A stretch of DNA of 12,024 bases, from the IMG/VR virus record IMGVR_UViG_2574180358_000007. One strand, 5' to 3'. The DNA comes from a virus. Taxonomy: Duplodnaviria > Heunggongvirae > Uroviricota > Caudoviricetes. Within the stretch, counting starts at the first letter, position 1. Every line of letters starts with the position of its first letter. Of this stretch, positions 1,274 through 8,437 are shown piece after piece. The position numbers and the translations under genes are program-made. The notes under the pieces are model-generated. The model worked only from the letters and a program-made list of their open reading frames with translations. It was not told the DNA's origin and ran no database searches.

Positions 1274-1873
1274 TTATGCTTGTTTACTCCTTGATTCCAC
1301 TGGGGAAGCAGGCCACTCAATATCCGGTGCACTTGATGTATCAACACGGTTCAGCAATACCCGATACTTTTTCCATGCTTCCAGCAACGAGATTTCTTCC
1401 TCCGTTGCAATTTCCAGATCTGCAGCATCCTGAAGCGGCGCAATATGCTCACTGGCTACCTGCATCAGGTTGTTTTTTGTTTCTTCCGCCTCCCGTATCC
1501 GGAACAGTTTTTCTGCTTCCGTATCCTTCACCCAGGCTATGCCGTTCCACTTCTGATATTCCCCTTCCGGCGACAACCAGGTAACATTTTCCGGTAACGG
1601 ACCGAGTTCAGAAATAAATAACGCATCGCCGAAAGCCACGTCATAAACCGTTTTACCACGATGATCTTCAACGAGATGCCAGGACGCCTCATCACTGTTG
1701 AAAATAGCCACGAAGCCAGCCGGAATATCTGGCGGTACAATATCGGTACTGTTTGCAGGTAGACCTGTATGAGGTGGAATATATGTGTCACCTTCACCAA
1801 TAAATTCATTAGTTCCGGCCAGCAGATTATAAATTTTGATGGTTCGTGATTGTTCACTCATTCTGAATGCCAT
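1274..1873 (-). CDS. tfa: Phage tail fibre assembly protein (lambda Tfa / TfaQ-TfaR-TfaE family)
   Basis: The 199-aa translation [44 protein letters not shown]...[14 protein letters not shown] matches, from memory, the tail fibre assembly proteins of E. coli cryptic prophages (Rac, Qin, e14) almost residue for residue. ATG at 1873, stop TAA at 1276..1274. Confidence 0.85.
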
Positions 1874-1903
1874 TATGCAAGCCTCACAATATAGTTAAAT
1901 GCA

Positions 1904-2371
1904 ATGTTTTTGACGGTGTTTTCCGCGTTACCAGCAGCGTTAACGGTGATGGTGTGTCCATGTGAGCCAATCGCAACGGAGTGCGTGTGTGCACCAATAA
2001 AGGCAGTACGGGACCGGGTTCACAATGAACTCAATGCCGGACATCCGGTACCGGGGTTTAAACTGGTAACAGGAAAACAAGGTAACCGGGCCTGGAGTGA
2101 TGAAGAGGCAGCTCGCGCACTTCTGAAGGACCAGTTCAGGTACAAAACTGAAGAAGTATTCGACTTTAAACTTATTAGTCCCACAAAAGCCGAAAAACTT
2201 ATCAAAAAGGCCAGTCCGCGCCGTTGGTCAAAAGTCGAGGCACTGATAACACGAGCTGATGGTAAACCCACCGTCGTTCCCGAGTCAGACCCACGCCCCG
2301 TACTCAATATCAACCCTGTAAATGATTTCGACGACGTATCCGACGATACGCTAACCGCAGACCTCATCTGA
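1904..2371 (+). pseudogene. 3' remnant of a DUF2800-family (PD-(D/E)xK nuclease-like) phage replication gene; N-terminal part missing
   Basis: A 155-aa ORF ends 16 bp before the DUF2815 gene on the same strand, the position a full-length DUF2800 gene (about 400 aa) occupies in this conserved module. The translation FKLVTGKQGNRAWSDEEAARALL...KPTVVPESDPRPVL looks like the C-terminal region of such proteins as I recall them. In-frame stops lie immediately upstream and tfa on the opposite strand ends only 30 bp away, so no room exists for the N-terminal two thirds. Confidence 0.4.
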
Positions 2372-2986: not shown

Positions 2987-3628
2987 ATGTCACAGCCCGT
3001 ATTAACTAATCACCTTAAAACTCAAATCATCAATAACGCACTTGAGAAAGCGGGTATTCCCAAACGTAAATCAGCACTACGAGCTGCTCGTGTTGAATGG
3101 GCCGAACGTGTTCGGCTTGCAGCTATCGGGGGCGTAGAGAAAGAAGCTGAAATATTAAAAAATATAAAAAAGATTGAATCCATGGTCACAAAAATCCCTG
3201 ATTCATTAAAAACCAATAGTTCTTTAATTCGAAAAGATTGCTGCATATATCTCAATCTGGCTGGAGCCAGAGCAAACATTTATTTCAATGGCAACTACAG
3301 AGGTTATGAATCAGGAGCCCCCGAGCATATTAATAAAATAGCACCTGCAGAATTTACTCTACTTGGCGAAGATCCTCTGGTAACGGAGTTTTATAGCTTT
3401 GATGCTCTCTACACACAAATTAAAAGTGATGAAACCGAAATCATACAGAACGTCAGCGCGGCTCTAAATAAAGTTCGGACAGTAAAACGATTACTGGATG
3501 TATGGCCCGAAGCTAAAGAACTGCTTCCAACAGACGCACCGCCAGTCCCTTTAGCACCAGCAGTACATCGAGAGACATTAAATGAAATGATAGGCCTTCC
3601 TACCAATACAGTGTCTGATACTCAATAA
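2987..3628 (+). CDS. Hypothetical protein (A/T-rich insert between DUF2815 and DNA polymerase)
   Basis: Uninterrupted ORF; GAGGGA lies 7 nt upstream of ATG 2987 (alternative ATG 2972, track start GTG 2957). No family recognised from the translation. Composition is A/T-richer than the flanking replication genes. Confidence 0.5.
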   Translation: MSQPVLTNHLKTQIINNALEKAGIPKRKSALRAARVEWAERVRLAAIGGVEKEAEILKNIKKIESMVTKIPDSLKTNSSLIRKDCCIYLNLAGARANIYFNGNYRGYESGAPEHINKIAPAEFTLLGEDPLVTEFYSFDALYTQIKSDETEIIQNVSAALNKVRTVKRLLDVWPEAKELLPTDAPPVPLAPAVHRETLNEMIGLPTNTVSDTQ

Positions 3629-4311
3629 CAAGGGGGATGCTTATTATATGATTTTGAACGTTTTACAATCTCGTTAAGAGGCGTGAAATCAAAATCTCTG
3701 AATAACACATCAGGATACTTCGCTCTTGCTTTATCCTGCAGACCAGTTAAAGTATTTTTTGTGTTACCCAACATTGTATTAACCGCCACTACATGTCTAA
3801 TTTCTGGAGGTTTATCTATACCACCAGAAATTGCTTCATTAAGAACCGACGCCAGTGGGGTTTGTCCCTTACTTGTTGAATCCCACAGCGTCATTAACAG
3901 ACGAGCTGCGTCTATAAATAGCTTTTTGTCAGCATTTGGCTTGACAGTAATACCAGAACTACCTGAGCCAGAACCGGAACGTTCTATTGCTGCACTGGTA
4001 TCCGATTTCATAGGATTAAATAACGGCAGCTCTGTACAACCGATACGCCGAATGAAATCCTTTGCAACATCTCTACCACAGAAAAAAGCCCCTGTACAAT
4101 TTTCATCAGAGCGTTTTTTAAATGAAAAACAATAGTACTGATCGGTTAACGGATAACCGGAATAACTGGTTTTAGTTTGTCCAGTAATAAGTTTCAGGTG
4201 TGCAACAGGCTGAATAATAAAATCCCGAACTATCGCATCTTTTATGTCGTTACCACGGTGACAATAATATTCAGGTAATCCATTAGGCTGTCTCTTATTA
4301 CCCACAGTCAT
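3622..4311 (-). CDS. Hypothetical two-domain protein with a Gly/Ser linker, encoded antisense to the replication operon
   Basis: 229-aa ORF with a strong SD (AAGGAGA, 6 nt spacer) upstream of ATG at 4311..4309. An internal SGSGSGSSG linker separates a Cys/His-containing N-terminal half from the C-terminal half. The 3' end overlaps the 3' end of the convergent gene 2987..3628 by 7 bp. No family recognised. Confidence 0.6.
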   Translation of the reverse strand: MTVGNKRQPNGLPEYYCHRGNDIKDAIVRDFIIQPVAHLKLITGQTKTSYSGYPLTDQYYCFSFKKRSDENCTGAFFCGRDVAKDFIRRIGCTELPLFNPMKSDTSAAIERSGSGSGSSGITVKPNADKKLFIDAARLLMTLWDSTSKGQTPLASVLNEAISGGIDKPPEIRHVVAVNTMLGNTKNTLTGLQDKARAKYPDVLFRDFDFTPLNEIVKRSKSYNKHPPCY

Positions 4312-4372
4312 TAGTTGTCTCCTTTAATTCATGATATCTAGCATTTAACCATATACCATATGAGGATATTTT

Positions 4373-6436
4373 ATGTCCAATATACTATGGGGCGACCTGG
4401 AAACCTATTGTGACATTCCGATCAACAACGGTACCCATGCGTATGCCGAAGGCGTTGAAGTGATGCTTTTCGCATGGGCTATCAACGACGGGCCAGTAAA
4501 CGTGTGGGATATCACTGCCGGTGGTGGTATTCCACACGGCTTATACGAAGCAATCGCAGACCCTGAAACCCTGCTTTATTTCCATAACTCTCACTTCGAC
4601 CGCACCGTTCTGCGTTATGCAATGCCGCGACTGGCACCGCCTGTCGAACGTTGGCGCGACACGATGGTGCAGGCGCTGGCGCACGGTCTTCCGGGGTCTC
4701 TGGGGGAACTCTGCGAAGTACTAGGCGTCCCGCAAGACAAAGCGAAGGACAAAGAAGGTAAAGCGCTGATCCAGCTGTTCTGTAAGCCACGCCCGAAAAA
4801 CAGCAAACTGCGTCGGGCCACCAGTAAAACCCACCCGGAAGAATGGCGGCGCTTTGTTGCTTACGCCGGACTGGATATCGAGGCAATGCGCGAAGTCTAT
4901 AAACGTCTGCCGAAGTGGAATTATCAGGGGACAGAACTGGCGCTCTGGCATCGTGATCAGCAGATCAATGACCGGGGCGTCTGCATGGACATGCAACTCG
5001 CACGCGCTGCGATCGAAGCGGTAGACCAGGAACAAAAGCGCCTGGCAAAGCGTACACAGGAAATGACTGATGGCGAAGTGCAGGCAGCCACACAACGAGA
5101 CGCGTTGATTAAGCACATTGTTGAATCCTACGGTGTGGAGCTACCAGACATGCAACGCAGTACTCTGGAACGTCGTATTGCCGACCCCGATTTACCATCT
5201 GCCGTGAAAGAACTGCTGGCTATCCGACTGCAGGCCAGTACTACCAGCACCAGTAAATACAAGGCACTAATGAAAGGCGTAAGCCACGACGGGCGCTTAC
5301 GCGGTACGCTACAGTTCTGCGGGGCGTCACGTACCGGTCGTTGGGCCGGACGGCTATTCCAGCCCCAGAATCTTCCCCGCCCTTCACTAAAACAGGAACA
5401 AATAGACGAAGGCATCGAAGCACTGAAAGCCGGATGTGCAGACCTGCTGTTTGACAATATCATGGAACTAACCAGTTCAGCGTTACGTGGCTGCATTATC
5501 GCGCCAACAGGCAAAAAACTGGTGGTAAGTGACTTGTCGAACATTGAAGGCCGTATGCTGGCATGGTTGGCAGGAGAAGAATGGAAACTGAATGCATTCA
5601 GAGAGTACGACGCCGGAACGGGTTCGGACTTATATAAACTGGCGTATGCAAAAGCTTTCGATATTGCACCAGATGATGTTGATAAACACATGCGTCAGAT
5701 CGGTAAAGTCATGGAGCTCGGTCTGGGTTATGGTGGTGGTGTATCGGCTTTCATCACTTTTGCGCTGGTTTACGGTCTCGATCTCGACGAGCTGGCGAAC
5801 GCCGCATTGCCAAACATTCCCCGCGATGTTATCCGCGAGGCGAAAAGCTGGTACGACGAATCGGTTAAACGCAAGTCAACCTACGGGCTTTCTGAACGGG
5901 TATTTATCGCCTGCGACTCACTTAAACGTCTCTGGCGCAGGGCGCACCCGGCGACCTGCGATTTCTGGTACGAACTGGAGCGCACCGTCCGCACAGCAAT
6001 CGCCACACCGCAAAAAACATTGTATTGCGGCTATCTTAAAATCCGACGTGATGGCGCGTGGCTGCGCATACAGCTACCATCCGGACGCGCTGTATGCTAC
6101 CCGTCTCCGGTTATCGAAAAAGGGAATATCACCTACAGGGGTGTTAACTCTTATTCGCGTAAATGGCAACGACTCAAAACCTACGGCGGAAAGCTGGTGG
6201 AGAACGTCACCCAAGCAGCCGCCCGCGACGTTCTGGCCGGAAACATGCCGCTGATCGAGGATGCAGGTTACAGCATTGTGCTGACGGTACACGATGAGGT
6301 AATCACCGAGGCGCCGGACACTGACGATTTCAACGATAAAGCGCTTTCCGCGCTGCTCTCCACTAACCCCGAGTGGGCACCCGATATCCCGCTGAACGCT
6401 GGCGGCTTCGAGGCGTACCACTACCGTAAGGATTAG
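4373..6436 (+). CDS. Family A DNA polymerase with 3'-5' exonuclease domain (phage-type, no 5'-3' exonuclease domain)
   Basis: Exonuclease motifs WGDLET (Exo I) and [12 protein letters not shown] (Exo II). Polymerase motif [20 protein letters not shown], motif [17 protein letters not shown], motif [18 protein letters not shown] lies 6 nt upstream of ATG 4373. Confidence 0.9.
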
Positions 6437-6489: not shown

Positions 6490-7251
6490 ATGATGCAGGA
6501 TCTCAATGAAATGGCTCTCAAATACCCACACCCTGTCGAAACTTTTCGTCAATTTTTAGTCGAATCCGGATTTGATGTTACCGGAGAAGAAAACAAAGCC
6601 GGTCATGATTGTTATCGTTTAAGTAATGGTGCCATCATAACGCTTTACCACACCGGAACGATTTTGATTCAAGGCTCACAAGCGGCAAAACCAGAGGTTG
6701 AAGCCATTATTAATGAACACTTGGGTAACGCGCCAGCTCAACGAGTTCAGCCAGCCCAGTTTCAAGAGCCAGCCAAAAAGATTTTCATCGTTCACGGTCA
6801 CGACCATGCAGCAAAAGAGCAGCTTGAGCTCATTCTTCATAAGCTTGGGTTACCTGATCATTTTATTTTGCAGAATACAGGCGGTACTGGACTTACGATA
6901 ATTGAAGAACTTGAGCGTGAAATTGGTCAAGGGCAGACAGCGACTCGTTTCGGCATTGTTCTTCTCACTCCCGATGATGTGGGGTACTCCAAAAGAGACG
7001 GTCAAGAAGCAGCCCTGCCCAGGGCTCGTCAAAACGTAGTTCTAGAAATGGGGATGTTGTTATCATCACTCGGGCGCAGTAACGTGGTCATCTTGCAGAA
7101 GCAACACCTTGAACAGCCTTCTGATGCTGCGGGTATTCTTTATCTCAACTTTAATGATCATGTTCGAGAAACTGTACCTCGCTTAATCCAGCGTCTTAAA
7201 CAGGCCGGTTTCACATTTAATGAAGCTCAAATAGCGAACGCTTCATCTTAA
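6490..7251 (+). CDS. TIR-like domain protein (COG4271 / Cap12-PycTIR-type predicted nucleotide-binding fold) with an N-terminal domain of about 95 aa of unknown function
   Basis: The C-terminal approx. 150 aa, KIFIVHGHDHAAKEQLELILHKLGL...IIEELERE...FGIVLLTPDDVGYSKRDG...PRARQNVVLEMGMLLSSLGRSNVVILQKQHLEQPSDAAGILYL, follows the TIR-like consensus as I recall it (FIVHGhD ... AIVLlTPDD ... RARQNVifELGyf.GkLGr.rV ... PSD..G). SD AGGA lies 5 nt upstream of ATG 6490. An intrinsic terminator follows immediately downstream. Confidence 0.6.
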   Translation: MMQDLNEMALKYPHPVETFRQFLVESGFDVTGEENKAGHDCYRLSNGAIITLYHTGTILIQGSQAAKPEVEAIINEHLGNAPAQRVQPAQFQEPAKKIFIVHGHDHAAKEQLELILHKLGLPDHFILQNTGGTGLTIIEELEREIGQGQTATRFGIVLLTPDDVGYSKRDGQEAALPRARQNVVLEMGMLLSSLGRSNVVILQKQHLEQPSDAAGILYLNFNDHVRETVPRLIQRLKQAGFTFNEAQIANASS

Positions 7252-7279: not shown

Positions 7280-7301
7280 CCCTGCAAATGCAGGGTTTTT
7301 T
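7280..7301 (+). terminator. Rho-independent terminator downstream of the TIR-like gene (A-tract, GC hairpin, T-tract; potentially bidirectional)
   Basis: aaaaaaa-CCCTGCaaatGCAGGG-TTTTTTgttt is read directly from the sequence, 29 bp after the TAA stop at 7249..7251. Confidence 0.75.
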
Positions 7302-7317
7302 GTTTGAGGTAACCCCT

Positions 7318-7539
7318 ATGTCATTTAAATATCGGGACAGTCCCCTTTATTACCGGACTGCGCGGGAGGCTTTGCGCCTTGAGCAGATCGGCGAGTACGA
7401 CCGGGCGGCAAAAGCCTGGGCCAAAGCCAACCGCGAATCACGTAACGCACTGAATCAGGACTGGAGCGAACGCCGGTCTGATTTTTGCCTGATGCAGAAC
7501 ATGCGCGAAAAGCGTAAGGCGGTGGACGATGGCGTATGA
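7318..7539 (+). CDS. Small hypothetical phage protein (73 aa) translationally coupled to VRR-NUC
   Basis: ATG 7318 with GAGG about 10 nt upstream. Its stop TGA 7537..7539 overlaps the VRR-NUC start ATG 7529 (ATGgcgtATGA arrangement). The track ORF start at 7288 lies inside the terminator hairpin and is rejected. Confidence 0.5.
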   Translation: MSFKYRDSPLYYRTAREALRLEQIGEYDRAAKAWAKANRESRNALNQDWSERRSDFCLMQNMREKRKAVDDGV

Positions 7540-7801
7540 GCGTGAAAGCCTTATCGAAAAGCACCTCATCGCCGAAGTGAAAAAGGCTGGCGGGATCGCC
7601 TTTAAGTTTGTGTCACCCGGTCGCCGCTCGGTACCGGATCGGATTGTCCTGTTACCCGGCGGTCGTCTCGTCTTTGTCGAATGCAAAGCACCTGGCAAAC
7701 CACCACGCACCGACCAGCTGCGCGAGCATGAACGGCTGCGCGCGCTGGGCTTTACCGTGGTGGTGCTGGATAGCAAAAATCTTGAGGGGATATTATTTTG
7801 A
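7529..7801 (+). CDS. VRR-NUC domain nuclease (PD-(D/E)xK fold)
   Basis: 90-aa product with PDRIVLLPGGRLVFVECKAPGKPP, matching the VRR-NUC D...E.K core. It sits in the expected module position upstream of the SNF2 helicase. Confidence 0.8.
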   Translation: MAYERESLIEKHLIAEVKKAGGIAFKFVSPGRRSVPDRIVLLPGGRLVFVECKAPGKPPRTDQLREHERLRALGFTVVVLDSKNLEGILF

Positions 7802-8437
7802 TTTATCTTTAGGGCTGAGCAAACATGAACGGAAAGCATTCCGTTCTTCAGTACTGGATTTGATAAACGTGAAGTCCTTATCTGCATCTAATAGCTTAAA
7901 CGCCACCTCGTTAGTATCACATTTACCCACCAGAACCTTCTCACCCACGTTGTTAACAAGATGGTATCCTGGTATTTCTCTAACGATATATTTACCTGAA
8001 GAAACCCAAGCACTTATTTGAGCAACTGACGAGGTACATAACATTGTGAAGAGTGCAATAAGAACAACGTTGCTACCAGAAAGACTCCGAAAAGATTTAT
8101 GCCCATCCATTAACAGCTGCCACGTTAACAGTATGGGATAAAATGCAATAAAACAAATAGCGAAAACAATTGGTTTTCCGCCACTCATGTAAAAACCGAT
8201 CGGATTAACCAATCCAACAAACGAAAAATACAACACCGCCGCAACAACCGTAGTTAAAACAAAAGAGAGCCAGTACCTACTTAACTTATAAACCCTAAAT
8301 GAAGTAGCTATCGCTATAAAAATAGGCACTGAAGCCAAACCAGTAAATGAAAGAGTTTTTAGCAGCGAGCTAACATCTATCAATATAAAGTCAGCAGGAT
8401 AACTAAAAAAAATAAGCGAAAGACCATTGATAAACAT
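7793..8437 (-). CDS. Predicted integral membrane protein (about 5 TM helices) with a small soluble C-terminal domain; function unknown
   Basis: 214-aa ORF with ATG at 8437..8435 and no clear SD. Hydrophobic stretches LSLIFFSYPADFILIDV, GLASVPIFIAIATSF, WLSFVLTTVVAAVLYFSFVGLV, IVFAICFIAFYPILLTW, VVLIALFTMLCTSSV are followed by a polar approx. 65-aa tail. Visibly A/T-rich, antisense to the flanking replication genes, and overlapping the VRR-NUC 3' end by 9 bp. Confidence 0.6.
   Translation of the reverse strand: MFINGLSLIFFSYPADFILIDVSSLLKTLSFTGLASVPIFIAIATSFRVYKLSRYWLSFVLTTVVAAVLYFSFVGLVNPIGFYMSGGKPIVFAICFIAFYPILLTWQLLMDGHKSFRSLSGSNVVLIALFTMLCTSSVAQISAWVSSGKYIVREIPGYHLVNNVGEKVLVGKCDTNEVAFKLLDADKDFTFIKSSTEERNAFRSCLLSPKDKSK

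What the first reader, a model, noticed from the sequence alone, without database searches (positions are those of the whole stretch)
3622..4311. Antisense two-domain protein with a strong RBS, convergently overlapping its neighbour
The gene has one of the best ribosome-binding sites in the window (AAGGAGA) yet is transcribed against the replication operon. It has an SGSGSGSSG flexible linker between a Cys/His-containing N-terminal half (CHRGNDIKD...C...C...C) and a distinct C-terminal half. Its stop overlaps the stop of 2987..3628 by 7 bp, so convergent transcription must collide. Opposite-strand, self-contained genes inside prophage early regions are typical of defence or exclusion cargo. 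Its function is unknown and possibly novel.
Basis: partly seen in the sequence, partly recalled or inferred. Interest (0 to 1): 0.55.

Follow-up and report, generated by a model that had tools for sequence, protein, structure and literature searches.

The report
Orphan prophage cargo gene, unknown family
This is a real, self-contained accessory gene carried by a decayed E. coli prophage; it encodes a two-lobed protein of a catalogued but uncharacterised family (Pfam PF27729/UCP028583) that repeatedly sits next to anti-phage defence systems and on plasmids, so it is a reasonable but unproven candidate for a role in phage/plasmid conflict.

Summary
A 229-codon ORF lies on the minus strand at 3622..4311, with an AAGGAGA ribosome-binding site, a disordered Ser/Gly linker, and a 7-bp stop-to-stop overlap with the Nmad5 gene.

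It is under strong purifying selection (dN/dS 0.11-0.16). It travels as a cassette: the gene plus a conserved 37-nt promoter-like block.

It occupies a variable antisense slot upstream of the polymerase gene in a yfhL-integrated prophage, which is only a remnant in this window. It is present in 27 of 5426 complete E. coli genomes.

The protein belongs to Pfam PF27729 (UCP028583), with 428 cluster representatives across Proteobacteria, Firmicutes and others. It has no hit in the local Pfam copy, PHROGs, PADLOC, NCBIfam, PDB sequences, or fold searches of PDB and viral models. No catalytic residue set or strict zinc site is conserved.

Relatives sit directly beside Avs2, DndFGH, CBASS, SIR2 proteins and type I R-M. 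In one locus a relative occupies the third-gene position of a PD-lambda-2-like system. Other relatives lie in small-gene arrays of conjugative plasmids and ICEs.

Best reading, at about 0.4 confidence: a lysogen-expressed, non-enzymatic, cytoplasmic anti-phage or exclusion factor. A counter-defence or establishment role is the main rival. Interest is moderate.

The parts
3622..4311 (-). CDS of 229 aa plus stop; member of Pfam PF27729 (UCP028583); RefSeq WP_000215799.1, hypothetical protein
   Evidence: purifying selection
4318..4324 (-). Shine-Dalgarno AAGGAGA, 7 nt upstream of the ATG
   Evidence: duplex energy -8.7 kcal/mol; strong SD also present in homologous cassettes
4344..4380 (-). Conserved 37-nt upstream block TTGGACATAAAATATCCTCATATGGTATATGGTTAAA. 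It contains a -35-like TTGGAC(A) and a TG-extended -10-like TGGTATATG(GT). This is the inferred promoter that travels with the gene. On the + strand it overlaps the polymerase ATG (4373) and SD.
   Evidence: 78-89% identical to the E. coli window in six other enterobacterial loci from five further genera, against about 50% between block and ATG and about 40% further upstream in non-prophage loci. The generic sigma-70 scan did not flag it.
4009..4272 (-). N-lobe, residues 14-101: helix, three-stranded sheet, helix. Carries C17, H38, Y59, Y60, C61, F62, C78, G79 and the LPLFNP motif.
3943..4008 (-). Flexible Ser/Gly-rich linker, residues 102-123, including SGSGSGSSG at 3952..3978
   Evidence: pLDDT below 50 for residues 104-121; length and sequence vary in the family
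3625..3942 (-). C-lobe, residues 124-229: six-helix bundle with invariant N178 (VNT motif) and F209
   Evidence: only generic helical matches in PDB
3622..3628 (.). 7-bp stop-to-stop overlap (TCAATAA) with the convergent Nmad5 gene. It coincides with the 3' edge of the mobile cassette.
   Evidence: Homology with the Dickeya and Enterobacter loci ends at window 3620/3621 and with Morganella at 3626, i.e. at or within a few bases of the stop codon.
3620..4404 (-). Extent of the transferable cassette: gene plus 70-93 nt upstream. Defined by homology to orphan copies in the Dickeya, Enterobacter and Morganella loci; the Providencia copy is truncated (191 aa), so only its 5' end, at 4380, agrees.
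   Evidence: blastn

Best explanation
The gene is a 'moron': a self-contained accessory cassette with its own promoter-like block, a strong RBS and one ORF. It sits antisense in a variable slot between the Nmad5/SSB genes and the family-A DNA polymerase gene of a yfhL-integrated prophage.

It encodes a basic, soluble, cytoplasmic protein of the uncharacterised family PF27729/UCP028583. The protein has an alpha+beta N-lobe with a partly conserved Cys/His cluster, a floppy Ser/Gly linker and a six-helix C-lobe.

The most likely role is a stand-alone anti-phage or exclusion factor made from the resident, here defective, prophage. I infer that it acts by binding something, either invading nucleic acid or a phage/host protein, rather than by catalysis. 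In some genomes it may serve as an add-on specificity component of neighbouring toxin-antitoxin-like defence modules.

Shown: gene reality, cassette structure, family membership, cargo status, neighbourhoods, and the lack of any known fold or catalytic motif.

Inferred: expression in the lysogen, the defence phenotype, and the binding mechanism.
For: 1. Real gene under constraint: dN/dS 0.11-0.16, synonymous sites saturated.
2. Cassette: homology between the E. coli copy and copies in Dickeya, Enterobacter, Morganella and Providencia starts 70-93 nt upstream. In the three full-length copies it stops at or within a few bases of the stop codon. The 37-nt upstream block is 78-89% identical while its flanks are about 40-50%.
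3. Cargo: low GC. Present in 27/5426 complete E. coli genomes, always single copy and intact. The slot holds unrelated antisense membrane-protein genes in strains IAI1 and A34. A 57%-identical homologue occupies the same slot in a Pantoea-type prophage.
4. It stays intact in a prophage remnant that has lost its structural genes. It also persists as orphan single-gene islets in chromosomes. This argues for a benefit to the host cell.
5. Defence neighbours of relatives: Avs2; NERD-UvrD plus DndFGH plus GmrSD; a type IV-like CBASS; a large SIR2 protein; PDC-S25 SIR2-STALD plus ToxN; type I R-M. Lamassu lies 5 kb away in Enterobacter. In this window a PDC-S35 TIR gene is one gene away.
6. In loci L006/L007 a relative follows a HigB-like gene and a PD-lambda-2B-like Xre-peptidase gene by 8 bp. 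That is the position of the third component that PD-lambda-2 needs for defence (PMC9519451).
7. No conserved catalytic set. The best-conserved residues are mostly hydrophobic or structural, plus N178. pI is about 9 and there is no TM segment.
8. Absent from sequenced phages and from PHROGs, so it is not a routine phage structural or replication protein.
Against: - No experiment supports any phenotype.
- No PADLOC model matches it or any of 121 relatives.
- About a third of the sampled contexts are co-directional small-gene arrays in conjugative plasmids and ICEs, next to SSB, topoisomerase, ArdC-like, JAB/RadC, orphan methylase, HU and Ros/MucR genes. Such arrays are typical of establishment or counter-defence genes.
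- Several orphan copies have no defence neighbours.
- The promoter is inferred from conservation only. The consensus scan did not find it, and no convincing terminator follows the gene (hairpin z-score -0.71).
- The context sample is about 20 loci, with no statistical background.
Confidence: 0.4

Rival explanations
1. It is a counter-defence or establishment factor of mobile elements. It would protect or escort incoming DNA, or neutralise a host defence or the SOS response, when a plasmid, ICE or phage enters a cell. The chromosomal and prophage copies would then be leftovers of such elements.
For: - Relatives sit in long same-strand arrays of small genes beside conjugation genes. Neighbours include SSB and T4SS genes, JAB/RadC, DUF3846 and an endonuclease on S. 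aureus pWBG707-type plasmids, an ArdC-like zincin, topoisomerase, TraN/TraH, and an orphan methylase, UDG, Ros/MucR and HU.
- 29 plasmid records carry a relative.
- Rare fusions to DUF5710 (E 9e-17) and a weak cold-shock-like domain. The basic pI fits DNA association.
Against: - In the prophage it is antisense to the early/replication genes. That is the wrong orientation for a gene needed at entry.
- It is absent from sequenced phages and PHROGs.
- It persists under purifying selection as orphan gene-plus-promoter cassettes and in a dead prophage, where an entry function would be useless.
- It often sits next to chromosomal defence systems.
Confidence: 0.25
2. It is a DNA-binding regulator or nucleoid-associated accessory protein of the element. 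For example, it could tune the divergent polymerase gene or the lysis-lysogeny state, with no direct role in conflict.
For: - Both lobes are basic.
- The promoter-like block overlaps the polymerase start codon and SD.
- Neighbours such as HU, Ros/MucR and AP2.
Against: - No recognisable HTH or other DNA-binding family matches.
- Sibling prophages replicate without it and carry unrelated membrane proteins in its place.
- Orphan copies have no polymerase gene to regulate.
- All fold matches are below the usual significance levels.
Confidence: 0.15
3. It is one component of a multi-gene system with a neighbour in this window, such as the Nmad5 protein it overlaps or the PDC-S35 TIR protein beyond the polymerase.
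For: The stop codons overlap the Nmad5 gene. The TIR gene is 2 kb away. A relative occupies the third position of a PD-lambda-2-like operon.
Against: - No partner is conserved.
- Strain IAI1 has the TIR gene without this gene, and A34 has Nmad5 without it.
- The Pantoea-type prophage has this gene next to a non-Nmad5 neighbour.
- Orphan cassettes carry the gene alone.
Confidence: 0.08
4. It is a decaying or functionless ORF that happens to remain open.
For: The prophage in this window is a remnant. There is no functional annotation anywhere.
Against: - dN/dS is 0.11-0.16 with saturated synonymous sites.
- All 27 E. coli copies are full length.
- The family has 428 cluster representatives with conserved architecture.
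- The fold prediction is confident: pLDDT 81.5 for the full protein and 89 for the N-lobe.
Confidence: 0.02

Closest known systems
Pfam PF27729 / PIRSF UCP028583 (uncharacterised conserved protein family)
   Same: The 99%-identical cluster representative P0001 and all 16 other homologues carry the precomputed PF27729 hit. The family name is shown. Length is the same at about 200-230 aa, and the two-lobe architecture is shared across 428 representatives.
   Different: Nothing differs; it is a member. The enterobacterial subgroup is slightly longer at the N terminus and has C61 instead of the commoner C50. The family has no known function, and no paper in the searched library mentions it.
Prophage morons and superinfection-exclusion or defence cargo (lambda-type morons; defence hotspots of P2/P4-like elements)
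   Same: It has its own promoter-like element plus an ORF. It is inserted between backbone genes in the opposite orientation, has deviant GC, and varies in presence among sibling prophages. Sibling prophages carry small membrane proteins in the same slot.
   Different: No convincing terminator. Expression in the lysogen and any exclusion phenotype are untested. The protein is soluble, unlike classic Sie proteins.
PD-lambda-2 (HigB-like toxin, Xre-peptidase, third accessory component; Vassallo et al. 2022, PMC9519451)
   Same: In metagenomic loci L006/L007 a family member sits 8 bp after a HigB-like gene and a PD-lambda-2B-like gene (E 1.5e-38). That is where the defence-essential third component lies.
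   Different: There is no sequence similarity to any PD-lambda-2 model. The E. coli gene has no HigB or Xre-peptidase partner. This rests on a single type of locus.
DUF151 / bifunctional nuclease domain (TM0160, PDB 1sj5)

Membership tests
Pfam PF27729 (UCP028583) | Significant match to the family HMM over the whole protein | tested here: met
   Precomputed PF27729.1 hit on P0001 (99% identical, 229 aa, full coverage) and on all 17 homologues. The family is named. The model is absent from the local Pfam copy, so the direct scan returned nothing.
Pfam PF27729 (UCP028583) | Shared architecture: N-lobe, variable linker, helical C-lobe, about 200-230 aa | tested here: met
   Profile search: 428 representatives, almost all 195-235 aa and matched end to end. 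Alignments.
Prophage moron | Located inside a prophage, between backbone genes | tested here: met
   Integrase, yfhL attachment region and replication genes are in the window. The full prophage is seen in strain FDAARGOS_943.
Prophage moron | Present or absent among otherwise related prophages | tested here: met
   27 of 146 E. coli genomes with a related polymerase 5' end carry it. Other genes fill the slot in IAI1, A34 and VL7S7.
Prophage moron | Own promoter and terminator | tested here: inconclusive
   A conserved 37-nt block with -35-like and extended -10-like elements travels with the gene. The consensus scan does not call it, and the downstream hairpin is not significant.
Prophage moron | Expressed from the repressed prophage | not testable with these tools
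   Needs RNA-seq or 5'-RACE of a carrier strain.
Known anti-phage defence systems (PADLOC-DB 2.0) | HMM match to a protein of a described or candidate system | tested here: not met
   No hit for the window protein at E up to 1 or for P0016/P0017 at E up to 0.1. Among 121 relatives there are only five scattered single-member hits, best E 4e-4, and no recurrent family.
Known anti-phage defence systems | Protection against phage when expressed | not testable with these tools
   Needs plaque assays.
Zinc-finger / treble-clef DNA-binding domains | Four conserved Cys/His metal ligands | tested here: not met
DUF151 bifunctional nuclease | Fold and sequence-family match | tested here: inconclusive
Toxin-antitoxin module | A conserved adjacent partner gene | tested here: not met
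   About 20 contexts show no recurrent neighbour.
Membrane superinfection-exclusion proteins | Transmembrane segment(s) or a signal peptide | tested here: not met
   Maximum 19-residue Kyte-Doolittle hydropathy is 1.01. The AF2 model is a soluble two-lobe fold.
Routine phage structural or replication proteins | Membership of a phage protein family, or presence in sequenced phages | tested here: not met
   No PHROG hit; among the 121 relatives only seven scattered single-member hits, best E 3e-4. No tblastn match in 50,697 phage records. No BFVD fold match.

The most novel reading that the evidence does not exclude
PF27729/UCP028583 could be a widespread family (at least 428 clusters at 50% identity) of single-gene, non-enzymatic immunity or conflict proteins with a fold not seen in the PDB. 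It would move as a minimal promoter-plus-gene cassette. It would work through a new binding-based mechanism, either alone or as a swappable specificity component of TA-like defence modules such as PD-lambda-2.
Probability: 0.3. Interest if true: 0.7.

Novelty: new member of a known kind. Interest (0 to 1): 0.45.

Why it matters
If the defence or counter-defence reading is right, a small protein family found from E. coli to Bacillus, Staphylococcus, Clostridium and Campylobacter would gain a function. That function would have no enzymatic domain and no structural precedent, and would add a new binding-based mechanism to phage/plasmid conflict.

The carriers include EHEC O26/O111 strains and a probiotic strain (M-17), so it could affect phage susceptibility in strains of practical interest.

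The minimal cassette, about 780 bp with its own expression signals, makes the hypothesis cheap to test. If the gene shows no phenotype, the finding is just one more conserved hypothetical prophage gene.

Tried and rejected
- Direct family scans of the protein against Pfam, PHROGs, PADLOC and NCBIfam found nothing. Scanning 121 relatives gave only scattered chance-level hits.
- PDB sequence search with profiles of 15 and 121 sequences gave nothing meaningful: one hit at E 0.21 to a Plasmodium rhoptry fragment.
- Foldseek against BFVD viral models gave nothing. The AlphaFold-database library was unavailable.
- Literature searches for PF27729, UCP028583 and WP_000215799 gave no papers. Searches on the prophage type and on prophage defence screens gave nothing specific.
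- I tested whether the 209-aa slot gene of strain IAI1 is a distant relative. It is not: hhalign probability 0.2%, and it is a membrane protein.
- I tested whether Nmad5 is a fixed partner. It is not.
- The downstream hairpin as an intrinsic terminator is not better than shuffled sequence.
- The N-lobe profile search for domain fusions found only fragments on short contigs.
- The genome-contig scan gave only 3 loci, because the degenerate patterns were narrow. The 121-sequence alignment was too diverse for that tool.
- Rfam and tRNA scans found nothing in the gene region.
- A strict CCHC zinc finger was rejected on conservation grounds.
Full report
**1. What is in the sequence**

The window holds a 229-codon ORF on the minus strand, 3622..4311.
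- The ATG at 4311 is preceded by AAGGAGA (4324..4318) at a 7-nt spacing.
- Predicted pairing with the 16S rRNA 3' end is -8.7 kcal/mol. That is third best of 15 gene starts in the window, against a background mean of -2.2.
- Its stop (TGA, 3624..3622) overlaps by 7 bp the stop of the convergent Nmad5 gene (2987..3628; Pfam Nmad5, E 1.7e-54).
- The SGSGSGSSG run is residues 112-120.

The ORF is a real gene.
- Between the E. coli copy and its homologues, synonymous sites are saturated (pS 0.78-0.89) while pN is 0.17-0.30.
- For closer pairs dN/dS is 0.11-0.16.
- RefSeq annotates it as WP_000215799.1, hypothetical protein.

**2. Setting**

The window is the integrase-proximal end of a prophage inserted next to yfhL. 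Its genes, in order:
- a truncated DUF2800 gene
- an Enc34-type ssDNA-binding protein
- Nmad5
- the target gene (antisense)
- a family-A DNA polymerase
- a TIR protein matching the PADLOC candidate PDC-S35 (E 1.6e-109)
- an ANR/PerC-like regulator
- VRR-NUC
- a second antisense ORF
- an SNF2 helicase
- an HTH protein
- the integrase

In strain FDAARGOS_943 the same region continues into lysis, head and tail genes. In this window, as in strains ET729, ECZP248 and L6-21, the structural block is deleted and DUF2800 is cut. The element here is a remnant.

**3. It is cargo, and it moves as a cassette**

GC content is about 0.40 for the gene and 0.55 for the polymerase.

Of 5426 complete E. coli genomes, 146 carry a related polymerase 5' end. 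Only 27 carry this gene. In those it is always single copy, full length and at least 99.3% identical.

Sibling prophages fill the same position differently:
- IAI1 has an unrelated antisense 209-aa membrane protein.
- A34 has an antisense 89-aa membrane protein.
- VL7S7 has a sense-strand BRO-N gene.

A 57%-identical homologue occupies the same polymerase-upstream slot in a Pantoea-type prophage. Its downstream neighbour there is not Nmad5.

Closer homologues (61-73% identity) occur as lone genes at unrelated chromosomal sites. These are in Dickeya, Enterobacter, Morganella, Providencia and several metagenomic contigs.

Pairwise blastn shows where homology to the window runs in these orphan loci. 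It starts 70-93 nt upstream of the ATG (window 4380-4404). In the three full-length orphan copies it ends at or within a few bases of the stop codon (3620-3626). This explains the 7-bp overlap with Nmad5: the cassette ends at its stop codon.

Within the upstream stretch, a 37-nt block (4380..4344) is 78-89% identical across six other enterobacterial loci from five further genera. The sequence between the block and the ATG is about 50% identical. The sequence further upstream is about 40% identical in the non-prophage loci.

The block contains TTGGAC(A) and, 17-19 nt later, TGGTATATG(GT). These resemble a -35 element and a TG-extended -10 element. I infer that this is the gene's own promoter. 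The generic scan, which requires T at the last -10 position, did not report it.

On the other strand, the block contains the polymerase start codon and Shine-Dalgarno sequence. The orphan copies keep 8-32 nt of polymerase 5' sequence. This suggests they derive from a prophage copy.

No convincing terminator follows the gene.

**4. The protein**

It has no match in the local Pfam-A, PHROGs, PADLOC or NCBIfam, nor in PDB sequences even with profiles.

The large protein database gives only 17 close relatives. All of them carry a precomputed hit to PF27729, named UCP028583. This is a Pfam family newer than the local copy and uncharacterised. No paper in the searchable library mentions the family or the accession.

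An exhaustive profile search finds 428 cluster representatives, 89 of them at E up to 1e-30. Almost all are 195-235 aa and match end to end. Named members come from Bacillus, Lysinibacillus, Aeromonas and Thermodesulfatator. Plasmid copies come from Staphylococcus, Vibrio, Clostridium, Campylobacter, Hafnia and others.

AlphaFold2 gives a confident model, with pLDDT 81.5 and pTM 0.79:
- an N-lobe (residues 14-101) of helix, three-stranded sheet and helix
- a disordered linker (104-121)
- a six-helix C-lobe

The high pTM and the constant co-occurrence of the halves suggest one two-lobed unit.

Fold searches found no informative match:
- Nothing matches among predicted viral structures.

Conservation across 121 representatives:
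- G79 and N178 are invariant.
- Y59, F62, F209, F98, P100 and L41 are nearly invariant.
- C17, C78 and H38 are frequent but not universal (108, 93 and 87 of 121).
- The fourth candidate ligand alternates between C50 and C61 or is missing.

There is thus no strict zinc site and no obvious catalytic constellation.

The protein is basic, with pI about 9 in both lobes in about two thirds of members. It has no hydrophobic segment.

Rare fusions add a C-terminal DUF5710 (E 9e-17) or a weak cold-shock-like N-terminus.

**5. Neighbourhoods of relatives**

One set of contexts is defence islands:

| Locus | Neighbours |
|---|---|
| L018 | Directly upstream of Avs2 |
| L017 | Between a NERD-UvrD helicase and DndF-DndG-DndH plus GmrSD |
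| L014 (Bacillus safensis) | 190 bp after a CBASS-like operon of 2TM effector, QueC, TGT and cyclase |
| L005 (Dickeya) | Convergent with a 1056-aa SIR2 protein |
| L020 (Hafnia plasmid) | Between an ArdC-like gene and a PDC-S25 SIR2-STALD gene plus ToxN |
| L006/L007 | Inside a type I R-M locus, 8 bp after a HigB-like gene and a PD-lambda-2B-like Xre-peptidase gene (E 1.5e-38) |
| L008 (Enterobacter) | 5 kb from a Lamassu system in an integrase-bounded island |

PD-lambda-2 is a three-gene Abi system whose third, unrelated component is needed for defence (PMC9519451). In L006/L007 the family member occupies that third position.

A second set of contexts is conjugative elements:
- a Thermodesulfatator ICE among T4SS genes and SSB
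- S. aureus pWBG707-type plasmids beside JAB/RadC, DUF3846 and AP2 genes
- Campylobacter and C. perfringens plasmids
- an array with an orphan methylase, JAB, UDG, Ros/MucR and HU

No neighbour recurs, so the gene behaves as an independent module.

**6. Interpretation**

The defence reading is the best single hypothesis. I put it at about 0.4, for these reasons:
- The orientation is antisense to the lytic genes.
- The slot holds exclusion-like genes in sibling prophages.
- The gene survives intact in a dead prophage and as orphan cassettes under purifying selection.
- Relatives repeatedly lie next to bona fide defence systems.

The protein lacks any enzymatic signature or membrane segment. I therefore infer that it acts by binding nucleic acid or a protein target. 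It may sometimes act as a specificity add-on to TA-like modules.

The main rival, at about 0.25, is an establishment or counter-defence role. This is suggested by the plasmid and ICE arrays, the DUF5710 fusion and the basic charge. Against it are the antisense orientation, the absence from sequenced phages and the orphan chromosomal copies.

A regulatory or nucleoid-associated role (about 0.15), dependence on a local partner (about 0.08) and a junk ORF (about 0.02) are less likely.

The claim that convergent transcription must collide is plausible for an induced intact prophage. It is untested, and it is moot in this remnant.

**7. Novelty and score**

The gene is a new member of a catalogued but uncharacterised family, in a familiar kind of genomic arrangement (a prophage moron).

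Its interest lies in five features: the apparently unprecedented fold, the breadth of the family, the minimal mobile cassette, the consistent conflict-related neighbourhoods, and the ease of testing.

Many conserved hypothetical prophage genes share this profile, so I score interest at 0.45. If the family proves to be a new binding-based immunity or conflict module (probability about 0.3), it would merit about 0.7.

Noticed in passing
window 6490..7251 (+): A 253-aa TIR-domain protein lies just after the polymerase gene. It matches the PADLOC candidate single-gene system PDC-S35 almost end to end (E 1.6e-109) and Pfam CAP12-PCTIR_TIR (E 5.8e-31). It is likely a defence gene carried in sense orientation. 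It is present in IAI1 and absent from A34.
   Followed up: partly
window 7793..8437 (-): A second antisense ORF of 214 aa lies between VRR-NUC and the SNF2 helicase. GC is very low (0.35-0.40) and the sequence has several hydrophobic stretches. It has no family hit in Pfam, PHROGs, PADLOC or NCBIfam. Sibling prophages carry other antisense hypothetical genes in this second slot.
   Followed up: partly
window 1274..2371: The prophage is a remnant. The DUF2800 ORF (1904..2371) matches only profile positions 272-368 of 368. It abuts a tail-fibre assembly gene (1274..1873, minus strand) and a family-9 glycosyltransferase gene. About 30 kb of lysis, head and tail genes present in strain FDAARGOS_943 are missing. 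The same junction is found in strains ET729, ECZP248 and L6-21.
   Followed up: partly
window 4344..4404: The polymerase start codon (4373) and its Shine-Dalgarno sequence lie inside the conserved promoter-like block of the antisense gene. Orphan copies of the cassette in Dickeya, Enterobacter, Morganella and Providencia retain 8-32 nt resembling the polymerase 5' coding end. This suggests the orphans were captured from a prophage copy.
   Followed up: yes
L006 3660..5741 and L007 742..2823: Inside a type I R-M locus, a HigB-like gene and a PD-lambda-2B-like Xre-peptidase gene are followed 8 bp later by a PF27729 member. That is where PD-lambda-2 has its unrelated third component. This may be a component swap in a TA-derived Abi system.
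   Followed up: partly
window 1332..1530 (-): Rfam match to the IS009 RNA family (RF02111): 219 bits, full length. It overlaps the 3' part of the tail-fibre assembly gene and the start of the glycosyltransferase ORF.
   Followed up: no
window 2987..3628 (+): The Nmad5 gene is itself low in GC (about 0.40). It is absent from IAI1 and split into two ORFs in A34. The whole interval between the SSB and polymerase genes is therefore a variable cargo region, not just the antisense gene.
   Followed up: partly
protein P0108 (metagenomic relative), residues 221-261: One family member carries a C-terminal DUF5710 domain (E 9.4e-17). From memory, this domain is otherwise attached to primases and topoisomerases of mobile elements. 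Another member (P0057, in a Thermodesulfatator ICE) has a weak cold-shock-like N-terminal extension.
   Followed up: partly
window 7288..7539 (+): An 83-aa ORF is annotated in RefSeq as an ANR family regulator. It has a weak PerC match (E 0.016) and matches PHROG 2227 (E 3.4e-25). In strain FDAARGOS_943 an ISEc60 lies immediately upstream of it.
   Followed up: no
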